Sequence record: PP129558
Length of the DNA: 64,000 nucleotides
Strand: one strand, 5' to 3'
Source: Escherichia phage vB_EcoM_01
Position numbers and translations under genes: made by a program. A model generated the notes under the pieces. That model made no database searches, had not been told where the DNA came from, and saw nothing but the letters and a program-made list of their open reading frames with translations. The first letter of the stretch is position 1, and each line of letters opens with the position of its first letter. Shown here piece by piece: positions 3,922 to 58,267 of the stretch.

Positions 3922-4019
3922 AAGGAGGAAGATTATGGCTACTTTTCAACAACTGAAAGATGTTTCACGTTTAGTAAGAAAAATCCGAGAAGCAGACGCT
4001 GCTGCTGTCTCTTATACAN

Positions 4020-4609
4020 NNNNNNNNNNNNNNNNNNNNNNNNNNNNNNNNNNNNNNNNNNNNNNNNNNNNNNNNNNNNNNNNNNNNNNNNNNNNNNNNN
4101 NNNNNNNNNNNNNNNNNNNNNNNNNNNNNNNNNNNNNNNNNNNNNNNNNNNNNNNNNNNNNNNNNNNNNNNNNNNNNNNNNNNNNNNNNNNNNNNNNNNN
4201 NNNNNNNNNNNNNNNNNNNNNNNNNNNNNNNNNNNNNNNNNNNNNNNNNNNNNNNNNNNNNNNNNNNNNNNNNNNNNNNNNNNNNNNNNNNNNNNNNNNN
4301 NNNNNNNNNNNNNNNNNNNNNNNNNNNNNNNNNNNNNNNNNNNNNNNNNNNNNNNNNNNNNNNNNNNNNNNNNNNNNNNNNNNNNNNNNNNNNNNNNNNN
4401 NNNNNNNNNNNNNNNNNNNNNNNNNNNNNNNNNNNNNNNNNNNNNNNNNNNNNNNNNNNNNNNNNNNNNNNNNNNNNNNNNNNNNNNNNNNNNNNNNNNN
4501 NNNNNNNNNNNNNNNNNNNNNNNNNNNNNNNNNNNNNNNNNNNNNNNNNNNNNNNNNNNNNNNNNNNNNNNNNNNNNNNNNNNNNNNNNNNNNNNNNNNN
4601 NNNNNNNNN
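4020..4609. other. Assembly gap (N run) with duplicated flanks and adapter remnants
   Basis: 3856-4006 repeats at 4630-4780; CTGTCTCTTATACA at 4007-4018 and ACACCACGTCTG at 4610-4621. Confidence 0.8.
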
Positions 4610-4708
4610 ACACCACGTCTGTTGTNNAGATGAAAAGACTGGGGTACAAGCCAAACTACGCTCGTTACCCTTCTGAATACAACTGGTTTGACTAAAAGGA
4701 GGAAGATT

Positions 4709-8939: not shown

Positions 8940-9395
8940 ATGAAAAAATTTATTTGCACCCGTTCCACTAACAGTGATATCCTTGTAGGTAAGGTTATCA
9001 AAGGAGAACTCTTCCATGCAAACGGTAAGAAATATATTCTGCTGAAAGATTCTTTCAACGGGGAATATCCGCGCTGCACTTTCTTCAATTACAACACTCC
9101 ATTTGCTTTAGAAGGAGATGCTTGGGACTGGGCTGAACTTCATCCTTTCTGTGAAGATGGACAGACAGAAGAGCAGGAAGAATCTACGGGAAGTTTACGT
9201 GATAAACTGCGTAATAAAGCACTGCAAGCAAATTCCCATTTTACTGAAATGGTAGACGCCGTTCTATTAGAGANNNAAGANNGNGCAAATGTTGTAGCTA
9301 CAATGCTACGTGCAAAAGGTTTGGATGTAACATTGGCAACCGCAGAGCACAGTATTTTTGGGATTATCAAACACATCGTTATTAGTTGGAACTAA
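8940..9395 (+). CDS. Hypothetical protein (contains ambiguous bases)
   Basis: ORF with GAGGAG RBS. Confidence 0.45.
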   Translation: MKKFICTRSTNSDILVGKVIKGELFHANGKKYILLKDSFNGEYPRCTFFNYNTPFALEGDAWDWAELHPFCEDGQTEEQEESTGSLRDKLRNKALQANSHFTEMVDAVLLEXXXXANVVATMLRAKGLDVTLATAEHSIFGIIKHIVISWN

Positions 9396-17823: not shown

Positions 17824-18624
17824 TTATTTGTTTAAGTGGTCTTCGACCATTTTAATGAAACCTTCATTGCTGAAGGCTGTTGCAGCTTTTTCTCGGTAAA
17901 CAAAAACTCCACGATCTTCATAGAGAAGTGTTTCTTCGTAATTAACTCCAGGGTTAACTACAACCATTTTTGTTCCGATGTTAAGAGCAGGAAAAAGCTC
18001 CCAGTTAAAATTGATAACTTGATTAGAGCAACCCACTACAATCACCATATCTTGAGCCGTCAAGCCGTCTAAGATGTGGTACATATCGTTATACAATGGG
18101 GCAGTCTCCCCAAAGAACACTACATTGGGCTTCACATACTTGTAATCATCTACATCGATAGCAGCATAGCCAACATCTTTGATGATTCTATTGTCTACGA
18201 TCACTTCAGGCAGGAAGCCGTGAACATGTAGAACATCTTCATGAACAACACCTGCTTGTTCCAGAAGATCATCTACGTTTGTCGTGATGTTGATAACACG
18301 ATCACAGCCGTACTCTTGGAACCACTCTGCGATCTGGTAATGCGCAGCGTTAGGAGACACACTATCCATCTCTACGCGACGTTTATTGTAGAAGTCATGA
18401 GTTTTACGGTAGAGGTTGTATCCCTCTGCATCTAATCCACCAACAGCGCCAGGAACACACTGTTCTTGCTGGTAGCCAGCACGGAAATTGAAAATATCGC
18501 ACACTTCAGAAAGGTCGTATTCATCCCACAAAGCTTTCCCACTATCTGTATCAGTGCGGAAAGTACGTACACCGCTATCGGCGCTTAGACCCGCGCCGCT
18601 GATCACTATTAATCGTCTTGGCAT
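17824..18624 (-). CDS. Sir2-family (sirtuin-like) NAD-binding protein without visible zinc-ribbon module
   Basis: ISGAGLSADSGVRTFR, TNVDDL, HG, VVFFGE, VVGCS motifs; GAGGAGG RBS. Confidence 0.7.
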   Translation of the reverse strand: MPRRLIVISGAGLSADSGVRTFRTDTDSGKALWDEYDLSEVCDIFNFRAGYQQEQCVPGAVGGLDAEGYNLYRKTHDFYNKRRVEMDSVSPNAAHYQIAEWFQEYGCDRVINITTNVDDLLEQAGVVHEDVLHVHGFLPEVIVDNRIIKDVGYAAIDVDDYKYVKPNVVFFGETAPLYNDMYHILDGLTAQDMVIVVGCSNQVINFNWELFPALNIGTKMVVVNPGVNYEETLLYEDRGVFVYREKAATAFSNEGFIKMVEDHLNK

Positions 18625-19112
18625 TCTTCCTCCTCATAATCATCATAATCTTCGTCATCCAAATCGTACACTTCGTCTTGAGAATAACTCACTTCAAAGT
18701 AAATATCAAACTCCGCAAACAAACGTAGAATGTTGGACATGCTGTAATAATTATCGTAGGCAGATTCAGCTTCATAGTAAACATAAAGCAAATGGTTAGC
18801 CTTATCATCTTCCAAATATTTCCCGTCTGCATACGCATAGTCTGCATATGCTTTACCTGCATCTTCCACAAGAGAACGATCAAGCAGAGTAGGAAATGGT
18901 TTCTCTTTTTCTTTTAGTTTGCTCACCAACCAGTGTGCAATATCATGCCAATCTGCATCCTCTCCGCTGAAGCAGCTTGCGACTTCGCCAAACTTGGCAT
19001 CTCCTAAGTCTCCGCTAATAGTGATCATGGTTGAACTATTGTAACCACAAGTCTCGCAATTTGAACAACTGTTGTGCACATGAATTTCTACTTGAAACAT
19101 ATTTCCTCCCAT
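18609..19112 (-). CDS. Hypothetical highly acidic protein, start-overlapped with Sir2-like gene
   Basis: D/E/Y-rich C-terminus; 16-nt overlap with downstream gene. Confidence 0.4.
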   Translation of the reverse strand: MGGNMFQVEIHVHNSCSNCETCGYNSSTMITISGDLGDAKFGEVASCFSGEDADWHDIAHWLVSKLKEKEKPFPTLLDRSLVEDAGKAYADYAYADGKYLEDDKANHLLYVYYEAESAYDNYYSMSNILRLFAEFDIYFEVSYSQDEVYDLDDEDYDDYEEEECQDD

Positions 19113-19114
19113 AA

Positions 19115-19145
19115 AAGAAAAGCCCCCTGAAACAGGAGGCTTTGT
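19115..19145 (-). terminator. Terminator-like hairpin on minus strand
   Basis: GCCTCCTG-TTTC-AGGGGGC + T-rich on minus strand. Confidence 0.45.
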
Positions 19146-19158
19146 TCAGATATCGGCA

Positions 19159-19771
19159 CTATACCAGACTTTCAAGGTATTTGTCAAGGGCTTCTTGATC
19201 ACCTTGACAAACATAGCAACGGAAGTCTTGAGCCGAAGGTTGTTTATTTTCATCCCAGTCCCAATAAACATTACCCTTATAACGTGAACCAGGAAACTCA
19301 AAAGAGGCTGTATGTGTAATGTATCCTGGGCCACCAGTGAAATCACAGAATGAGAATTGAGGATATGCCGCCTTTACTGCCTCAATAAACCAAGCTTTAC
19401 GATCTAAGGCTTCATTGATGCTATATGCATGTCTCTCCATTTCTTCCCAAGTTTTCCAGACACTTCTCTCATCAGGAGAAAAGACAAGCNATTCNGGANG
19501 NGNANNNAGNNGACTCCTCCAGTTTTGAGTAATCAAAAGCAGAATATACCCACCAACCATCCTCCAGTAAGGCTTTGATAGGGACGAAGCCTTTATCAGC
19601 ATATTGATCGAATTGTTTGACACGGTGGCTTGTGCAGTCTTCAAACTCACATTCTAAACGATATGCACCTTTTCGACGAGCCTCAAGACCGTGTGTACTG
19701 AAAATAACAACACTTCCTTCACCATCATTACGATCTACTTGATAAGCAACTACTGGTTTTGAATTTGACAT
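19159..19771 (-). CDS. Hypothetical protein (ORF interrupted by ambiguous bases at 19490-19512)
   Basis: Two table ORFs in same frame across N-containing stretch. Confidence 0.4.
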
Positions 19772-20454
19772 TATTTCTCCTTATCTAGAAGATTGTTAGA
19801 CAAAAACACGGCACGAGCAAAACCACGTGCGGTTAGGGATCTAAGTTGTTTTGTTTTTGCACTAGCTCCACCTAAGCTTTTCCAACCCCAGAAGCAGCCT
19901 ATATGATCTACTGGTTTCTTCACTGGTTGAACAAAACCATTGCCGTGCCAAATACAAGTTTTCTTTGTATACCCATCACGGGTAGGCATTTTAGGATGAA
20001 AGCTTCCTTCCTCTTCAAACAAATACTCACCATACTCATAAGGATCAAAGTAAAAATCGGGTTTACGCCATAAGGTTGAAAGTTTACCTACTGGGTTCTC
20101 AATCATCCAAGGAACATTATATTTGTTACCCAAAGCTTCCACTACACGAATATTAGCTAAAGCTTCATCCAATTCCTCTGTGCTGCGTTCGTGTTTGCTA
20201 CCACTACCTGCTAACATAGTGCAAGGTGGAAATCCAAAAATAATATCGGGTTTAGGTATCCCATGATCTTCAGGGTTGAATGTAGAATCTATCCAGGCAT
20301 TCACATAGGTTATGTTTGGGTGCTCCATCCTAACCTCGTATTTACCGTGATCCCCTTCATCAGCGTTTACACAAAAACACTTGTGACCTGCTTCGGCATA
20401 ACGTAACACCATGATCCCAGATCCGTCAAACATAGACAAAACTGTTTTACTCAT
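19771..20454 (-). CDS. Short DNA (cytosine-5)-methyltransferase-like protein
   Basis: FDGSG (motif I-like), GFPPC (motif IV-like), ENP (motif VI-like). Confidence 0.45.
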   Translation of the reverse strand: MSKTVLSMFDGSGIMVLRYAEAGHKCFCVNADEGDHGKYEVRMEHPNITYVNAWIDSTFNPEDHGIPKPDIIFGFPPCTMLAGSGSKHERSTEELDEALANIRVVEALGNKYNVPWMIENPVGKLSTLWRKPDFYFDPYEYGEYLFEEEGSFHPKMPTRDGYTKKTCIWHGNGFVQPVKKPVDHIGCFWGWKSLGGASAKTKQLRSLTARGFARAVFLSNNLLDKEK

Positions 20455-20860
20455 TACCCCTCCATTCAAGACAAGCCATAACTTTACGCCAATCACTTTC
20501 TGTAAGAAAAATCTCGTTTGCTTTCTTCCACAAATCTAAATCGTGAAGGGTTGGAATACGATATGTTAGTTCACAGAATCTATGCTCTGCTTCTGTAATA
20601 TAACCAAAATGCAGAGCCACATCGTGAAACCAACACCAACCATGCATCTCTCGAACAACATGGTCATGTTGAGACATTATTTTATGCCGTAAACCTAACC
20701 AACAAGGAACAGATACTTTAGTAGTCTTTAATCTGTGTTCAACAGTATTAGAGTATTCAATAATAGCTGTCAGTTTCAATCGTGCTTTTTCTAAATCCTC
20801 ATGCGTCACTTTGAAATAACTTTCTGAAAGATATCCACACATATTAATAACCTCCTTCAA
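20447..20860 (-). CDS. Hypothetical protein
   Basis: ORF. Confidence 0.4.
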   Translation of the reverse strand: MKEVINMCGYLSESYFKVTHEDLEKARLKLTAIIEYSNTVEHRLKTTKVSVPCWLGLRHKIMSQHDHVVREMHGWCWFHDVALHFGYITEAEHRFCELTYRIPTLHDLDLWKKANEIFLTESDWRKVMACLEWRGNE

Positions 20861-21785
20861 AAGGCTTTACTACATGTTGATTAGCTTTAAAACGTTCAAC
20901 ATAGTCGTTTTCGCCCATGTTTTCATATAGCTTAATAACAACATAAAAGTTTTCCCAAGCATATTCCCTAAACCAACCACTAGTGATGGATGTGCAGACT
21001 TTAGATAAAGCCATTATAAAACTTTGCTTAGGGGTTGGACCTCCGATCTCTTCACCGAAAGGAATTTGTGAACGTTCCAAAGCCAAAACACACGCTTCTT
21101 CATAAACACCTAACAGCCGCACATGTTTTGGTTGAGCAAAAAACTTTTCTTTGCTGGTCATAACTTCACTTCCATCTTTCATATAAGATTTATATGCTGG
21201 AGCATCCATTAACGCGATTGCTTCATGGATAGAATCATGATCATAAACATACGGAACCTCGTCACCTTTAAAGAACTCTTTACTTTTTACGTTTAAGTTC
21301 GGATGAGAGTAAGTGTATGTTTCTCTCTCACGCAACTCATAAATACTCTTAAGATTTTCTGGGATCTTTGCGCCCAGTGACCGCATGAAATGAATATCTT
21401 TCATAGTTTTAAAGAAGTGAGGACTATCCTTTTTAAAACGATGACTCATTTTAAGAAGGTAGAGCACATCTAAAGGAGCAACAACATGTCCAGCGTAAGT
21501 TCGACGAACATCATCAGAATCTTCACAATAACTAATCAAAGCTTCTGTGCTATCTCCTTGAGAAGCAATATCGTATTCCAAATGTGCACCAGCTATCATT
21601 TTGACATGGCCTTTGTTCCCTTTACGTTCTACAAGTTCAACAAACTCGTCTTGAGAGAACATTTTTGATAATTCTTCCCACTCTTGTTCTGTACACAGGT
21701 AATCTAAATCTACACAAGGGCGATACAAGTCTTTTCCCATGCCCATAGCATGAATTTGTAATGCACGGCTACCAATTAACACCAT
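20844..21785 (-). CDS. Hypothetical protein with N-terminal GS...DxD motif (possible nucleotidyltransferase fold)
   Basis: LIGSRA ... CVDLD near N-terminus; weak. Confidence 0.35.
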   Translation of the reverse strand: MVLIGSRALQIHAMGMGKDLYRPCVDLDYLCTEQEWEELSKMFSQDEFVELVERKGNKGHVKMIAGAHLEYDIASQGDSTEALISYCEDSDDVRRTYAGHVVAPLDVLYLLKMSHRFKKDSPHFFKTMKDIHFMRSLGAKIPENLKSIYELRERETYTYSHPNLNVKSKEFFKGDEVPYVYDHDSIHEAIALMDAPAYKSYMKDGSEVMTSKEKFFAQPKHVRLLGVYEEACVLALERSQIPFGEEIGGPTPKQSFIMALSKVCTSITSGWFREYAWENFYVVIKLYENMGENDYVERFKANQHVVKPFEGGY

Positions 21786-21845
21786 AATATTTCTCCTCTA
21801 TTGGTTGATAGGTTAAGTTTATCAAGCTTCCAGATTCCTGTCAAT

Positions 21846-21866
21846 AAAAAACCCGCCGAAGCGGGT
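21846..21866 (-). terminator. Rho-independent terminator on minus strand (CCCGC-TTCG-GCGGG + T6)
   Basis: Same stem as the plus-strand terminator at 17161. Confidence 0.6.
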
Positions 21867-21875
21867 TATTATTTA

Positions 21876-22148
21876 CTAACACATTGAGGAAGAAGAGATC
21901 CAAACACCTCTTGTGGTTAAACCATTTTCATCCAACTCTACACCATAATCTTCACAAATGAAATCAATATAGTGATCTGCGGCTGGCGTTCCTGTAGGGT
22001 AATAAGTTTCTCCGTTACCGTAGTCACCTATCCAAGCTTGTTCCTGAAACTGTTCACAAAGTTCTTCAATTTCCTTACGAAACTTTCTTTGTGCTTGTTC
22101 CATCTCTTTAACTTTCTTTTTTATCAGCAGTTCGCCTTCAGACTCCAC
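21876..22148 (-). CDS. Small acidic protein with C-terminal GVWISSSSMC tail
   Basis: ORF; tail shared with neighbours. Confidence 0.45.
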   Translation of the reverse strand: MESEGELLIKKKVKEMEQAQRKFRKEIEELCEQFQEQAWIGDYGNGETYYPTGTPAADHYIDFICEDYGVELDENGLTTRGVWISSSSMC

Positions 22149-22157
22149 AATCTCTCC

Positions 22158-22376
22158 TTAACAGCTACTACTGTGCCAAACGCCTTGAGAATTAACAACG
22201 AAACCATCATCACCTTCACCATAACAAGAAGAGGATTGCCAATCTTCAAAACAGATTGCGTCATCTTCTAAACTAAGACCAAAACCAGCATCTTCAGCTT
22301 CTTTTGTAAGTTCGTCCACCAAAGCCATAATAGCTTGGGCTTTTTCAGTTAATTCTTCAACATTACGATAACTCAT
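22158..22376 (-). CDS. Small acidic protein with internal WQSSSC and C-terminal GVWHSSSC
   Basis: ATG after GAGGAG RBS. Confidence 0.45.
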   Translation of the reverse strand: MSYRNVEELTEKAQAIMALVDELTKEAEDAGFGLSLEDDAICFEDWQSSSCYGEGDDGFVVNSQGVWHSSSC

Positions 22377-22684
22377 TAGTATTTCTCCTCTGGTTGGAAA
22401 ACGGAACGACAGGCCCACATAGAAGCTTCTTTCAACTTAGTCTTTGCTATTGAAATTTGGTCAAGGCGGGTGGATATATTGGTAGACTCTTCCAAATCTT
22501 CACAATCATCCAGTTCAGCCCACAATTCAGACATTAGAGCATCAAAGATTAATCCTAATCGAACTTCAGCATCTTTAATAGCATTCACTTTACCAATTTT
22601 GTCATCGGTATGCGGTTTATAACCTTTGATATCTTCGATTCCCACTTTACCTCCTATTAACAACTTAAAGAAGATGGATGCCAA
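22376..22684 (-). CDS. Hypothetical protein (weakly supported, overlaps neighbours)
   Basis: ORF only; no clear RBS. Confidence 0.3.
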   Translation of the reverse strand: MASIFFKLLIGGKVGIEDIKGYKPHTDDKIGKVNAIKDAEVRLGLIFDALMSELWAELDDCEDLEESTNISTRLDQISIAKTKLKEASMWACRSVFQPEEKY

Positions 22685-22854
22685 TTTGTTCCAGTATTCT
22701 CATTTTCATCTTCTGGATCATAATAACCACCCATCCCATATTCAGGGGAGAAACTGAAACCTTCACCAGTCTCGTCTGCTAACTGCTCTGCTTCCGCTAA
22801 AGCCTCATAAGCTGCTTTTACGGCTTCTTCTACTGTTTTAAACTTGGTCGTCAT
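22657..22854 (-). CDS. Small acidic protein with C-terminal NWHPSSLSC tail
   Basis: ORF; tail motif. Confidence 0.45.
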   Translation of the reverse strand: MTTKFKTVEEAVKAAYEALAEAEQLADETGEGFSFSPEYGMGGYYDPEDENENTGTNWHPSSLSC

Positions 22855-36123: not shown

Positions 36124-36975
36124 NNNNNNNNNNNNNNNNNNNNNNNNNNNNNNNNNNNNNNNNNNNNNNNNNNNNNNNNNNNNNNNNNNNNNNNNNNNNN
36201 NNNNNNNNNNNNNNNNNNNNNNNNNNNNNNNNNNNNNNNNNNNNNNNNNNNNNNNNNNNNNNNNNNNNNNNNNNNNNNNNNNNNNNNNNNNNNNNNNNNN
36301 NNNNNNNNNNNNNNNNNNNNNNNNNNNNNNNNNNNNNNNNNNNNNNNNNNNNNNNNNNNNNNNNNNNNNNNNNNNNNNNNNNNNNNNNNNNNNNNNNNNN
36401 NNNNNNNNNNNNNNNNNNNNNNNNNNNNNNNNNNNNNNNNNNNNNNNNNNNNNNNNNNNNNNNNNNNNNNNNNNNNNNNNNNNNNNNNNNNNNNNNNNNN
36501 NNNNNNNNNNNNNNNNNNNNNNNNNNNNNNNNNNNNNNNNNNNNNNNNNNNNNNNNNNNNNNNNNNNNNNNNNNNNNNNNNNNNNNNNNNNNNNNNNNNN
36601 NNNNNNNNNNNNNNNNNNNNNNNNNNNNNNNNNNNNNNNNNNNNNNNNNNNNNNNNNNNNNNNNNNNNNNNNNNNNNNNNNNNNNNNNNNNNNNNNNNNN
36701 NNNNNNNNNNNNNNNNNNNNNNNNNNNNNNNNNNNNNNNNNNNNNNNNNNNNNNNNNNNNNNNNNNNNNNNNNNNNNNNNNNNNNNNNNNNNNNNNNNNN
36801 NNNNNNNNNNNNNNNNNNNNNNNNNNNNNNNNNNNNNNNNNNNNNNNNNNNNNNNNNNNNNNNNNNNNNNNNNNNNNNNNNNNNNNNNNNNNNNNNNNNN
36901 NNNNNNNNNNNNNNNNNNNNNNNNNNNNNNNNNNNNNNNNNNNNNNNNNNNNNNNNNNNNNNNNNNNNNNNNNNN
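36124..36975. other. Assembly gap (N run) flanked by 148-bp exact duplication
   Basis: 35976-36123 equals 36976-37123. Confidence 0.8.
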
Positions 36976-53463: not shown

Positions 53464-53844
53464 TCCATATTCNGTCTCTTATNNNNNNNNNNNNNNNNNN
53501 NNNNNNNNNNNNNNNNNNNNNNNNNNNNNNNNNNNNNNNNNNNNNNNNNNNNNNNNNNNNNNNNNNNNNNNNNNNNNNNNNNNNNNNNNNNNNNNNNNNN
53601 NNNNNNNNNNNNNNNNNNNNNNNNNNNNNNNNNNNNNNNNNNNNNNNNNNNNNNNNNNNNNNNNNNNNNNNNNNNNNNNNNNNNNNNNNNNNNNNNNNNN
53701 NNNNNNNNNNNNNNNNNNNNNNNNNNNNNNNNNNNNNNNNNNNNNNNNNNNNNNNNNNNNNNNNNNNNNNNNNNNNNNNNNNNNNNNNNNNNNNNNNNNN
53801 NNNNNNNNNNNNNNNNNNNNNNNNNNNNNNNNNNNNNNNNNNNN
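53464..53844. other. Assembly gap (N run) with duplicated flanks
   Basis: 53322-53463 repeats at 53860-54002; AGAGACAG adapter remnant at 53845-53852. Confidence 0.8.
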
Positions 53845-58100: not shown

Positions 58101-58267
58101 TATAACGGAATTTAGCTCAGTTTGGTAGAGCGTACGCTTTGGGAGCGTAGGGTCGCAGGTTCGAATCCTGCAATNCNGACAGACCAGCCATATAACGGAA
58201 TTTAGCTCAGTTTGGTAGAGCGTACGCTTTGGGAGCGTAGGGTCGCAGGTTCGAATCCTGCAATTCC
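58088..58267. repeat. Exact ~90-bp tandem duplication spanning tRNA-Gln 3' end and tRNA-Pro, N bases at junction (probable assembly artifact)
   Basis: 58088-58177 equals 58178-58267; Ns at 58175 and 58177. Confidence 0.7.

What the first reader, a model, noticed from the sequence alone, without database searches (positions are those of the whole stretch)
19771..20454. Unusually short C5-cytosine methyltransferase-like ORF
Motifs resembling C5-MTase blocks I (FDGSG), IV (GFPPC) and VI (ENP) occur in the canonical order, but the protein is only ~228 aa. It could be a minimal methyltransferase or a repurposed pyrimidine-C5-modifying enzyme. It sits next to an ORF interrupted by ambiguous bases (19159..19771).
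Basis: inference. Interest (0 to 1): 0.45.

Follow-up and report, generated by a model that had tools for sequence, protein, structure and literature searches.

The report
Short phage Dcm-like cytosine-C5 DNA methyltransferase
This is a real gene for a very compact (227 aa) phage DNA cytosine-C5 methyltransferase; it belongs to a large, already annotated phage family whose relatives have been shown to make 5-methylcytosine, so it is essentially ordinary.

Summary
The ORF is real: window 19771..20454, minus strand, 227 aa, with a GGAGGGG ribosome-binding site.

The window is a draft phAPEC8-like coliphage (Phapecoctavirus). The ORF is phAPEC8 gp194, which RefSeq already names "DNA methyltransferase". 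It matches PHROG 757 full length (E 1e-83). Relatives occur in about 1,490 phage records and 1,842 representative clusters, nearly all 200-260 aa, so the short length is the family norm.

The shortness comes from a missing N-terminal extension, a target-recognition region of about 41 aa (122 in E. coli Dcm) and a short C-terminus.

Two homologs about 50% identical have published evidence. The Drexlerviridae K42 Dcm puts 5mC on retron Ec86 msDNA and triggers that defence. Pantoea phage AAS23 gp52 sits in a genome whose DNA shows Dcm-type methylation.

Verdict: an already known kind. The target sequence is inferred (CCWGG), not shown. The interruption of the neighbouring ORF is an assembly artefact.

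The parts
19771..20454 (-). CDS for a 227-aa short Dcm-like DNA cytosine-C5 methyltransferase (stop codon 19771..19773). It is the ortholog of phAPEC8 gp194.
   Evidence: ORF list and translation. phAPEC8 annotation 'DNA methyltransferase', 684 bp. phrog_757 E 1.2e-83 over aa 1-225. AlphaFold2 model pLDDT 87.9 with C5-MTase fold matches.
20457..20463 (-). Shine-Dalgarno-like GGAGGGG, 2 nt upstream of the ATG. The stop codon of the upstream ORF (20447..20449) overlaps the start of the MTase gene by 8 nt.
   Evidence: Read directly from the sequence and ORF coordinates.
20416..20430 (-). Motif I, FDGSG (aa 9-13): the F-x-G-x-G S-adenosylmethionine-binding loop after beta-strand 1.
   Evidence: Invariant in 30 close relatives. 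In the wider family the pattern is L-(F/Y/C)-D-x-(T/S)-G. It aligns with HaeIII motif I.
20221..20235 (-). Motif IV, GFPPC (aa 74-78). Cys78 (20221..20223) is the predicted catalytic nucleophile.
   Evidence: C78 is present in 84 of 84 diverse relatives. It aligns with the PC of HaeIII and of E. coli Dcm. It corresponds to C82, which was mutated in the K42 Dcm mutant.
20092..20100 (-). Motif VI, ENP (aa 119-121), a variant of the canonical ENV. Glu119 is predicted to protonate cytosine N3.
   Evidence: E119 is present in 84 of 84 relatives and P121 is invariant. It aligns with the ENV of Dcm in hhalign. It corresponds to K42 E128.
19960..19968 (-). T-K-K (aa 163-165) at the start of a beta-strand, taken as the equivalent of motif VIII (canonical Q-x-R-x-R).
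   Evidence: K164 is present in 83 of 84 relatives; position 165 is K or R in 56 of 84. These correspond to K175/K176 of K42 Dcm, which were mutated as substrate-binding residues. The E119 to K164 spacing of 45 aa compares with about 52 aa in Dcm.
19855..19941 (-). Residual target-recognition region (aa 172-200, NGFVQPVKKPVDHIGCFWGWKSLGGASAK), lying between the motif VIII equivalent and motif IX.
   Evidence: The distance from K164 to R205 is 41 aa here (family range 34-54), against 122 aa from QHRER to RRLTPRE in E. coli Dcm. P177, W189 and W191 are conserved. The centre of the loop differs from tonn and AAS23.
19822..19842 (-). Motif IX-like RSLTARG (aa 205-211; family consensus RSLTPRGFARAV), followed by the C-terminal helix.
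   Evidence: The corresponding Dcm sequence is RRLTPRE at 400-406. R205 is present in 83 of 84 relatives. The model has helices at aa 199-206 and 210-219. No GN(A/S)V motif X is recognisable by sequence.
19119..21844 (-). Probable four-gene transcription unit containing the MTase. It runs from a promoter-like site (21816..21844) through a DUF7277/DUF7275 protein (20844..21785), a phrog_16551 protein (20447..20860), the MTase and the gp195 homolog (19159..19771) to a terminator-like hairpin (19119..19143).
   Evidence: The pattern scan is consensus matching only. phAPEC8 carries an annotated terminator at the position equivalent to window 21850..21867.
19159..19771 (-). Downstream, translationally coupled neighbour (the TAATG stop/start overlap lies at 19769..19773). 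It is the homolog of phAPEC8 gp195 (phrog_8514, unknown function). Here it is broken by ambiguous bases at 19490..19511 and a 41-bp gap.

Best explanation
The ORF encodes an orphan, S-adenosylmethionine-dependent DNA cytosine-C5 methyltransferase. It belongs to the compact 'phage Dcm-like' family (PHROG 757).

Mechanism, inferred from the established chemistry of C5-MTases:
- Motif I (FDGSG) binds SAM.
- The target cytosine is flipped out of the duplex.
- The Cys78 thiolate (FPPC) attacks C6.
- Glu119 (ENP) protonates N3.
- The methyl group is transferred to C5, and beta-elimination releases the enzyme.
- Lys164/Lys165 take the place of the motif VIII arginines that hold the flipped base and the backbone.

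The core from motif I to motif VIII has near-canonical spacing. The protein is short for three reasons. It has no N-terminal extension, only about 41 aa between motif VIII and motif IX where ordinary enzymes carry an 80-120-aa target-recognition domain, and a 22-aa tail after motif IX.

The gene is expressed from a four-gene unit on the minus strand. The enzyme most likely methylates replicating phage DNA, probably at CCWGG as in the two studied homologs. That would protect the DNA from EcoRII-type restriction whether or not the host has its own Dcm. A side effect is that such enzymes can be sensed by retron Ec86/Eco1.

What is shown here: the gene, the motifs, family membership and the predicted fold. 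What is shown only for homologs: 5mC formation. What is inferred: the target sequence and the biological role in this phage.
For: Gene and motifs.

Identity of the window: 99.5% identical to Dompiswa phage TSP7_1 and 98.9% to phAPEC8. phAPEC8 gp194 is annotated 'DNA methyltransferase'.

Family: phrog_757 E 1.2e-83, full length. 1,487 phage records, many annotated as DNA cytosine or Dcm-like methyltransferase. 1,842 representative clusters at E<=1e-3.

Conservation: C78 and E119 in 84 of 84 relatives, K164 in 83 of 84, R205 in 83 of 84.

Weak but correctly placed sequence matches: PF00145 aa 4-92 at E 0.18. Seven of 30 close relatives match PF00145, best E 3.1e-6. HaeIII E 0.099, with motifs I and IV aligned.

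Experiments on homologs:
- K42 Dcm is a 711-bp gene. Escaper phages disrupt it. Its expression raises 5mC on Ec86 msDNA by LC-MS, and the C82A/E128A/K175A/K176A mutant does not.
- The phage tonn ortholog is 236 aa with C82, E128, K175 and K176 at exactly those numbers (by hand count). It is 49% identical to the window protein, E 2e-71.
- AAS23 gp52 is 52% identical, E 8e-81. The authors report HHpred probability 99.7% to Shigella Dcm and Dcm-type methylation of virion DNA by restriction analysis.

CCWGG is not avoided in the window (60 observed, 70.7 expected). GGCC, CCGG and GTAC are at 0.36-0.39 of expectation, and CCSGG is at 0 of 5.9.
Against: - The curated Pfam C5-MTase model is not reached (11.6 bits against 22), and NCBIfam gives nothing.
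- Family profiles find no solved C5-MTase by HMMER.
- hhalign against E. coli Dcm, alone or as a shallow profile, gives probability below 2%, although it aligns PC...ENV in register.
- No motif X (GN[AS]V) can be recognised, and motif VIII is K-K rather than R-x-R.
- The motif II acidic residue is Asn30 here, against Asp in 79 of 84 relatives. The active K42-type and AAS23 proteins also have Asn.
- Nothing has been measured for this protein or for any Phapecoctavirus.
- CCWGG specificity of K42 Dcm was assumed from host Dcm and supported only by msDNA site mutants.
- The AAS23 digest did not exclude methylation by the host's own Dcm.
- The centre of the mini-TRD loop differs between this protein and both studied homologs.
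Confidence: 0.82

Rival explanations
1. It is an active DNA C5-methyltransferase, but its target is not CCWGG. With so small a recognition region it may read a shorter or degenerate site, or depend on dimerisation or DNA structure (hairpins, single strands) for target choice.
For: Only about 41 aa separate motif VIII from motif IX, against 122 in Dcm. The centre of that segment (KKPVDHIGCFWGW) differs from tonn (PKEEDKDNPGW) and AAS23 (DEVANSGNSNPGW). The best solved structural matches are DNMT3A/B, which have small TRDs, short CpG targets and work as oligomers (the DNMT3 properties are from established knowledge). K42 Dcm methylated an msDNA hairpin that host Dcm in MG1655 left largely unmethylated. 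No direct motif mapping exists for any family member.
Against: Mutating CCTGG in the msDNA abolished sensing of K42. AAS23 DNA behaved as Dcm-methylated in restriction digests. CCWGG is not depleted in this window while several other short palindromes are.
Confidence: 0.3
2. It is a repurposed C5-MTase fold. It may act on RNA or free nucleotides, or transfer a group other than methyl (for example carboxymethyl from Cx-SAM) as the first step of a base hypermodification.
Against: The homolog's product on DNA was 5mC by LC-MS. The neighbouring genes are Sir2, DUF7275/DUF7277 and proteins of unknown function. No TET, glycosyltransferase, CmoA-like or other modification enzyme was detected there. 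Structural similarity to 8yf3 is no higher than to plain C5-MTases.
Confidence: 0.05
3. It is a catalytically dead methyltransferase-like protein, kept for DNA binding or as a decoy against host defences.
For: It fails the Pfam gathering threshold. It has Asn instead of the usual acidic residue at motif II and Lys instead of Arg at motif VIII, and no recognisable motif X.
Against: Cys78, Glu119, Lys164 and Arg205 are conserved across relatives down to about 31% identity. The same Asn and Lys-Lys features occur in the K42-type enzyme, which is active in vivo, and its activity is lost on mutating those very residues.
Confidence: 0.03
4. It is not a gene: the motifs occur by chance in a spurious ORF.
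For: Each motif is only three to five residues long.
Against: There is a full-length family match at E 1e-83 and hundreds of homologs of the same length. The start has a Shine-Dalgarno sequence and is coupled to both neighbouring genes. The structure model is confident.
Confidence: 0.01

Closest known systems
Dcm of Drexlerviridae phage K42 (KarlJaspers-like), the trigger of retron Ec86/Eco1 (bioRxiv 10.1101/2023.08.16.553469; cited as established in PMC12916289)
   Same: Same family and architecture: 236 aa against 227 aa. The tonn ortholog is 49% identical over the full length (E 2e-71). All four residues mutated in the inactive K42 mutant are conserved: C82/E128/K175/K176 correspond to C78/E119/K164/K165. 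Both are orphan enzymes of virulent enterobacterial phages.
   Different: The phage lineage differs: a roughly 150-kb Phapecoctavirus myovirus against a roughly 51-kb siphovirus, and the gene neighbourhoods differ. The centre of the mini-TRD loop differs. Activity, target site and retron triggering are untested for this protein.
Pantoea phage vB_PagS_AAS23 gp52, 'DNA cytosine methyltransferase' (PMC8004638)
   Same: 52% identical, E 8e-81, 235 aa. The authors likewise found no conserved domain by BLASTP. They obtained HHpred probability 99.7% to Shigella Dcm (3ME5), and the virion DNA appeared Dcm-methylated in restriction digests.
   Different: The host and phage family differ. The digest evidence does not separate phage methylation from host methylation.
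E. coli Dcm / M.EcoRII-type canonical bacterial C5-MTases (Pfam PF00145)
   Same: Motifs I, IV (PC), VI (ENV/ENP) and IX (RRLTPRE against RSLTARG) occur in the same order, with similar I-IV-VI-VIII spacing. The probable target site, CCWGG, is the same, by inference from homologs.
   Different: Dcm is 472 aa against 227 aa here. This protein has no 92-aa N-terminal extension. The motif VIII to IX interval is 41 aa against 122 aa. The tail after motif IX is 22 aa against 72 aa. Motif VIII is K-K rather than R-x-R, and no GNSV motif X is seen. The Pfam model is not reached, and hhalign against Dcm is not significant.
Catalytic domains of mammalian DNMT3A/DNMT3B (closest solved structures)
   Different: Sequence identity is only 14-19%. 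DNMT3 enzymes are eukaryotic, carry regulatory domains, and recognise CpG as dimers or tetramers (established knowledge). Oligomerisation of the phage enzyme is untested.
M.HhaI / M.HaeIII, the textbook type II C5-MTases
   Different: They are about 327-330 aa and have a full small domain (TRD) of roughly 80-100 aa plus a distinct motif X. Each is paired with a restriction enzyme, whereas this gene is an orphan.

Membership tests
Short phage Dcm-like methyltransferases (PHROG 757; K42 Dcm, AAS23 gp52, phAPEC8 gp194) | Full-length match to the family profile | tested here: met
   phrog_757 E 1.2e-83, 281 bits, aa 1-225 against profile positions 13-223 of 247.
Short phage Dcm-like methyltransferases (PHROG 757; K42 Dcm, AAS23 gp52, phAPEC8 gp194) | Significant end-to-end similarity to the experimentally studied members | tested here: met
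   49% identity to the tonn ortholog of K42 Dcm, E 2e-71. 52% identity to AAS23 gp52, E 8e-81.
Short phage Dcm-like methyltransferases (PHROG 757; K42 Dcm, AAS23 gp52, phAPEC8 gp194) | Conservation of the residues whose mutation inactivates K42 Dcm (C82, E128, K175, K176) | tested here: met
   The equivalents C78, E119, K164 and K165 are aligned. The numbering was checked on the tonn protein.
Short phage Dcm-like methyltransferases (PHROG 757; K42 Dcm, AAS23 gp52, phAPEC8 gp194) | Compact single-domain size (about 200-260 aa) | tested here: met
   227 aa here. The 84 aligned relatives range 202-261 aa with median 235. Lengths are also listed.
Short phage Dcm-like methyltransferases (PHROG 757; K42 Dcm, AAS23 gp52, phAPEC8 gp194) | Formation of 5-methylcytosine in DNA, at CCWGG | not testable with these tools
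   Reported only for homologs: LC-MS on msDNA plus CCTGG site mutants, and restriction digests. No data exist for Phapecoctavirus.
C5-cytosine DNA methyltransferase superfamily (Pfam PF00145 DNA_methylase) | Score at or above the Pfam gathering threshold | tested here: not met
   11.6 bits against a cut-off of 22, E 0.18, aa 4-92 only. Seven of 30 close relatives match at E<=1, best 3.1e-6. One of 84 diverse relatives matches at E<=0.01.
C5-cytosine DNA methyltransferase superfamily (Pfam PF00145 DNA_methylase) | Motif I, the F-x-G-x-G SAM-binding loop | tested here: met
   FDGSG at aa 9-13. It aligns with HaeIII motif I.
C5-cytosine DNA methylltransferase superfamily (Pfam PF00145 DNA_methylase) | Motif IV, the Pro-Cys dipeptide with the catalytic cysteine | tested here: met
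   P77-C78. The Cys is present in 84 of 84 relatives. It aligns with the PC of HaeIII and of Dcm.
C5-cytosine DNA methyltransferase superfamily (Pfam PF00145 DNA_methylase) | Motif VI, E-N-V with the catalytic glutamate | tested here: met
   E119-N120-P121 (Pro in place of Val). The Glu is present in 84 of 84 relatives. It aligns in register with the ENV of Dcm.
C5-cytosine DNA methyltransferase superfamily (Pfam PF00145 DNA_methylase) | Motif VIII, Q-x-R-x-R | tested here: inconclusive
   T-K-K at aa 163-165 lies at the expected distance from motif VI: 45 aa here against about 52 aa in Dcm. K164 is present in 83 of 84 relatives. Equivalence rests on spacing and on the authors' superposition with DNMT3A, not on a residue-level structural alignment made here.
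C5-cytosine DNA methyltransferase superfamily (Pfam PF00145 DNA_methylase) | Variable target-recognition domain of roughly 80-120 aa between motifs VIII and IX | tested here: not met
   Only 41 aa from K164 to R205 (family range 34-54), against 122 aa in E. coli Dcm.
C5-cytosine DNA methyltransferase superfamily (Pfam PF00145 DNA_methylase) | Motif IX (R-x-L-T-x-R-E) and motif X (G-N-[AS]-V) | tested here: inconclusive
   RSLTARG at aa 205-211 resembles Dcm's RRLTPRE. No GN[AS]V is present. The C-terminal helix at aa 210-219 may take the place of motif X.
C5-cytosine DNA methyltransferase superfamily (Pfam PF00145 DNA_methylase) | C5-MTase three-dimensional fold | tested here: met
C5-cytosine DNA methyltransferase superfamily (Pfam PF00145 DNA_methylase) | Significant profile-profile similarity to a canonical member | tested here: inconclusive
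   hhalign of the family alignments against E. coli Dcm, alone or as a 21-sequence Dcm profile of Neff 2.1, gave probability below 2%. The template profile was too shallow. Published HHpred for AAS23 gp52 gave 99.7%.

The most novel reading that the evidence does not exclude
At about 227 aa this family may hold the smallest active DNA C5-methyltransferases. The target-recognition region is cut to about 40 aa and no structure has been solved. The evidence does not exclude that this Phapecoctavirus member reads DNA in an unconventional way. Possibilities are an obligate dimer resembling DNMT3, a preference for hairpin or single-stranded replication intermediates, or a target other than CCWGG. 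Its divergent mini-TRD loop could give it a specificity not yet described.
Probability: 0.25. Interest if true: 0.45.

Novelty: already known. Interest (0 to 1): 0.2.

Why it matters
For annotation, this settles the ORF as a genuine orphan Dcm-like DNA methyltransferase. GenBank submitters often leave it as 'hypothetical protein' because the Pfam and NCBIfam models miss it.

Biologically, such enzymes are anti-restriction tools, and in Drexlerviridae they are the signal sensed by retron Ec86/Eco1. Their presence in phAPEC8-like therapeutic-candidate phages may therefore affect host range in both directions.

Enzymologically, the family is a natural minimal C5-MTase without a normal TRD and without a solved structure. 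That makes it a reasonable target for structural work on how sequence specificity can be achieved with so little protein. None of this is new in kind.

Tried and rejected
1. The GTG start at 20496 (241 aa) was rejected. Homolog N-termini, the phAPEC8 annotation and the Shine-Dalgarno sequence all support the ATG at 20454.
2. NCBIfam gave no hit, even at E<=10.
3. HMMER profiles of the family against PDB sequences gave nothing relevant: none with the 30-sequence profile, and only chance SDR or kinase matches at E above 0.2 with the 84-sequence profile.
4. hhalign of the family against E. coli Dcm, as a single sequence and as a 21-ortholog profile built from genome contigs, gave probability below 2%. 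The Dcm orthologs were too similar to one another (Neff 2.1) to make a useful template, so this test is uninformative, not negative.
5. Model coordinates are not exposed in the sandbox. No residue-level superposition or active-site geometry check could be made.
6. A literature search found no methylome or restriction data on Phapecoctavirus.
7. The peer-reviewed version of the retron Ec86 study is cited by others but is not held in the library. Only the preprint was read.
8. Phage KarlJaspers itself was not among the 60 listed hits (45 further records were not listed). BASEL phage FritzSarasin carries the same 711-bp gene at 98.2% identity, annotated 'Dcm-like C5 cytosine methyltransferase'.
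9. A hypermodification-pathway reading was rejected for lack of any partner enzyme nearby.
Full report
**1. The observation**

The region holds a minus-strand ORF. The mechanical ORF list gives 19771..20496 from a GTG. The biologically supported start is the ATG at 20454, which yields 227 aa plus a stop codon. Three things support this start:
- GGAGGGG lies at 20457..20463, just upstream (read).
- Homologs begin at the same residue.
- phAPEC8 annotates the same 684-bp gene.

The gene overlaps the stop codon of the upstream ORF by 8 nt. It shares a TAATG stop/start with the downstream ORF.

**2. Where the window comes from**

The segment 18500-21800 is 99.5% identical to Dompiswa phage TSP7_1 and 98.9% identical to Escherichia phage phAPEC8, of the genus Phapecoctavirus in Stephanstirmvirinae. 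The ORF is phAPEC8 gp194. RefSeq names it 'DNA methyltransferase', one record calls it 'Dcm', and many GenBank submitters leave it as 'hypothetical protein'.

The window is draft-quality sequence, with 1,837 N in nine clusters. The cluster at 19490..19511 sits in the downstream neighbour and coincides with 41 bp that are missing relative to phAPEC8. In phAPEC8 that gene is an intact 217-aa ORF (gp195; phrog_8514, function unknown). The 'interrupted ORF' is therefore an assembly artefact and has nothing to do with the methyltransferase.

**3. Family**

The protein matches PHROG 757 ('DNA methyltransferase') over its full length at E 1.2e-83. tblastn finds it in 1,487 phage records, 64 of them at >=99% identity. 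These include Klebsiella weberviruses, T1-like Drexlerviridae, kagunaviruses, rV5-like phages and Arthrobacter phages. Many are annotated as DNA cytosine or Dcm-like methyltransferases.

A word-indexed search found 563 relatives. An exhaustive profile search found 1,842 representative clusters at E<=1e-3 and 738 at E<=1e-10. Almost all full-length members are 200-260 aa. The short length is the rule for this family, not a truncation.

**4. Is it related to C5-MTases?**

By sequence profile the relationship is only marginal:
- PF00145 gives E 0.18 and 11.6 bits against a gathering score of 22, over aa 4-92.
- Seven of 30 close relatives match PF00145, best E 3.1e-6. Only one of 84 diverse relatives matches at E<=0.01.
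- NCBIfam gives nothing.
- phmmer finds M.HaeIII at E 0.099, with motifs I and IV aligned.
- Family HMMs find no solved C5-MTase.
- hhalign against E. coli Dcm is not significant, although it puts FPPC...ENP in register with FPCQ...ENV. The Dcm template I could build was too shallow (Neff 2.1) for this to count as a negative result.

By structure the answer is clear. The AlphaFold2 model is confident, with pLDDT 87.9 and pTM 0.87.
- Foldseek gives DNMT3B/3A at E about 1e-8 with probability 1.00.
- In the viral structure library, family members named DNA-cytosine methylase come first, followed by canonical viral C5-MTases.

The authors of the AAS23 paper report HHpred probability 99.7% to Shigella Dcm for a 52%-identical homolog.

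**5. Anatomy**

In 84 relatives sharing 31-56% identity with the query, Cys78 and Glu119 are invariant. K164 and R205 are each present in 83 of 84.

Spacings compared with E. coli Dcm:

| Segment | E. coli Dcm (472 aa) | This protein (227 aa) |
|---|---|---|
| N-terminus to motif I | 92 aa | 8 aa |
| Motif I to IV | 84 aa | 69 aa |
| Motif IV to VI | 47 aa | 41 aa |
| Motif VI to VIII | about 52 aa | 45 aa |
| Motif VIII to IX | 122 aa | 41 aa |
| Motif IX to C-terminus | 72 aa | 22 aa |

The catalytic core is thus of normal size. The missing 245 residues are the N-terminal extension, most of the target-recognition domain and the C-terminal part.

Motif IX is recognisable: RSLTARG here, family consensus RSLTPRGFARAV, against Dcm RRLTPRECARLM. 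Motif X (GNSV) is not recognisable by sequence, and the last helix (aa 210-219) may take its place. Motif VIII is K-K instead of R-x-R. The motif II position is Asn30 in this subfamily and Asp in most of the wider family. The Asn also occurs in the K42-type protein that is active in vivo.

**6. Experimental evidence from relatives**

The retron Ec86 preprint (10.1101/2023.08.16.553469) reports the following:
- It isolated escaper mutants of Drexlerviridae phage K42, and all of them disrupt a 711-bp dcm gene.
- Dcm expression is toxic only in the presence of the retron.
- msDNA from Dcm-expressing cells has high 5mC by LC-MS. msDNA from cells with the C82A/E128A/K175A/K176A mutant, or with empty vector, has little.
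- Changing CCTGG in the msDNA stem-loop abolishes defence.

I could not obtain K42's own sequence. The Warwickvirus tonn gene, read from its internal Met, is exactly 711 bp (236 aa). By my hand count on the translation it has C82, E128, K175 and K176 at those numbers. The same 711-bp gene occurs at 88.5-100% identity in all 60 listed hits of 105 matching records, including BASEL phage FritzSarasin, where it is annotated 'Dcm-like C5 cytosine methyltransferase'. The tonn protein is 49% identical to the window protein end to end (E 2e-71), with C78, E119, K164 and K165 aligned. Later papers cite the finding as established.

Independently, Pantoea phage AAS23 gp52 (52% identical) lies in a genome whose DNA was reported as Dcm-methylated by restriction analysis.

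Two caveats apply. CCWGG specificity was assumed from host Dcm and never mapped directly. The AAS23 digest does not exclude methylation by the host.

**7. Context and likely role**

The gene sits in a probable four-gene minus-strand unit, bounded by a promoter-like site (21816..21844) and a terminator-like hairpin (19119..19143). These are pattern matches only, but phAPEC8 has an annotated terminator at the position equivalent to window 21850..21867. The gene's partners in the unit are a DUF7277/DUF7275 protein and two PHROG families of unknown function. A Sir2-family protein follows in the next unit. No restriction enzyme and no base-hypermodification enzyme is nearby, so this is an orphan methyltransferase.

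In the window CCWGG is not avoided (60 observed against 70.7 expected). GGCC, CCGG and GTAC are at 0.36-0.39 of expectation, and CCSGG is absent. This is weakly consistent with CCWGG being protected by methylation.

From established knowledge, inner-cytosine methylation of CCWGG blocks EcoRII-type enzymes. It does not create an McrBC site (RmC). A phage-borne copy would make protection independent of the host's dcm status.

**8. Verdict**

The alternative of a 'repurposed pyrimidine-modifying enzyme' is not supported.

The protein is a near-identical copy of an already annotated phage gene. It belongs to a large known family with published functional evidence, so novelty is 'already known' and interest is low.

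Two questions remain open, for this protein and for the whole family. One is the directly mapped target sequence. The other is how a recognition region of about 40 aa achieves specificity. No member has a solved structure.

Noticed in passing
window 19490..19511 (also 157-230, 2698-2709, 4019-4627, 9274-9284, 36124-36975, 53473-53844, 58175-58177): The window carries 1,837 ambiguous bases in nine clusters, three of them long (609, 852 and 372 bp). The cluster at 19490..19511 coincides with 41 bp missing relative to phAPEC8 and frameshifts the gp195 homolog. This is a draft-assembly artefact, not a biological feature.
   Followed up: yes
window 21876..22148, 22158..22418, 22657..22854 (all minus strand): Three adjacent small acidic ORFs (65-90 aa) share 25-32% identity and a distinctive C-terminal end: W-x-(S/P)-S-S...C (GVWISSSSMC, GVWHSSSC, NWHPSSLSC). 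They look like a small tandem paralog family of unknown function.
   Followed up: partly
window 17824..18624 (minus strand): A Sir2-family protein (PF02146 E 5.9e-20; phrog_2162 E 8e-102) lies two genes downstream of the methyltransferase, in the next transcription unit. Its role in the phage is unknown.
   Followed up: no
window 20844..21785 (minus strand): The first gene of the methyltransferase's transcription unit encodes a 313-aa protein. It consists of two domains of unknown function, DUF7277 (aa 1-87) and DUF7275 (aa 107-297, E 2.7e-75).
   Followed up: no
whole window (64 kb): Several short palindromes are strongly under-represented relative to a Markov expectation: GGCC 0.39, CCGG 0.36, GTAC 0.39, CTAG 0.53, and CCSGG 0 observed against 5.9 expected. 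GATC (0.92), GCGC (0.94) and CCWGG (0.85) are not. This suggests restriction-site avoidance for some targets and methylation or indifference for others.
   Followed up: partly
window 18609..19112 (minus strand): A 167-aa protein (phrog_9509, unknown function) has an N-terminal Cys-rich stretch (HNSCSNCETCGY) and a very acidic C-terminus (…DLDDEDYDDYEEEECQDD). It lies just after the terminator-like hairpin that ends the methyltransferase unit.
   Followed up: no
proteins P0125, P0199, P0209, P0211, P0258: A few representatives of the family are much longer (317-548 aa), with the methyltransferase module at one end; in P0258 it occupies residues 404-544. A BFVD hit shows the fold fused to a 1,397-aa helicase-type protein. 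These fusions might hint at partners or functions of the short enzymes.
   Followed up: no
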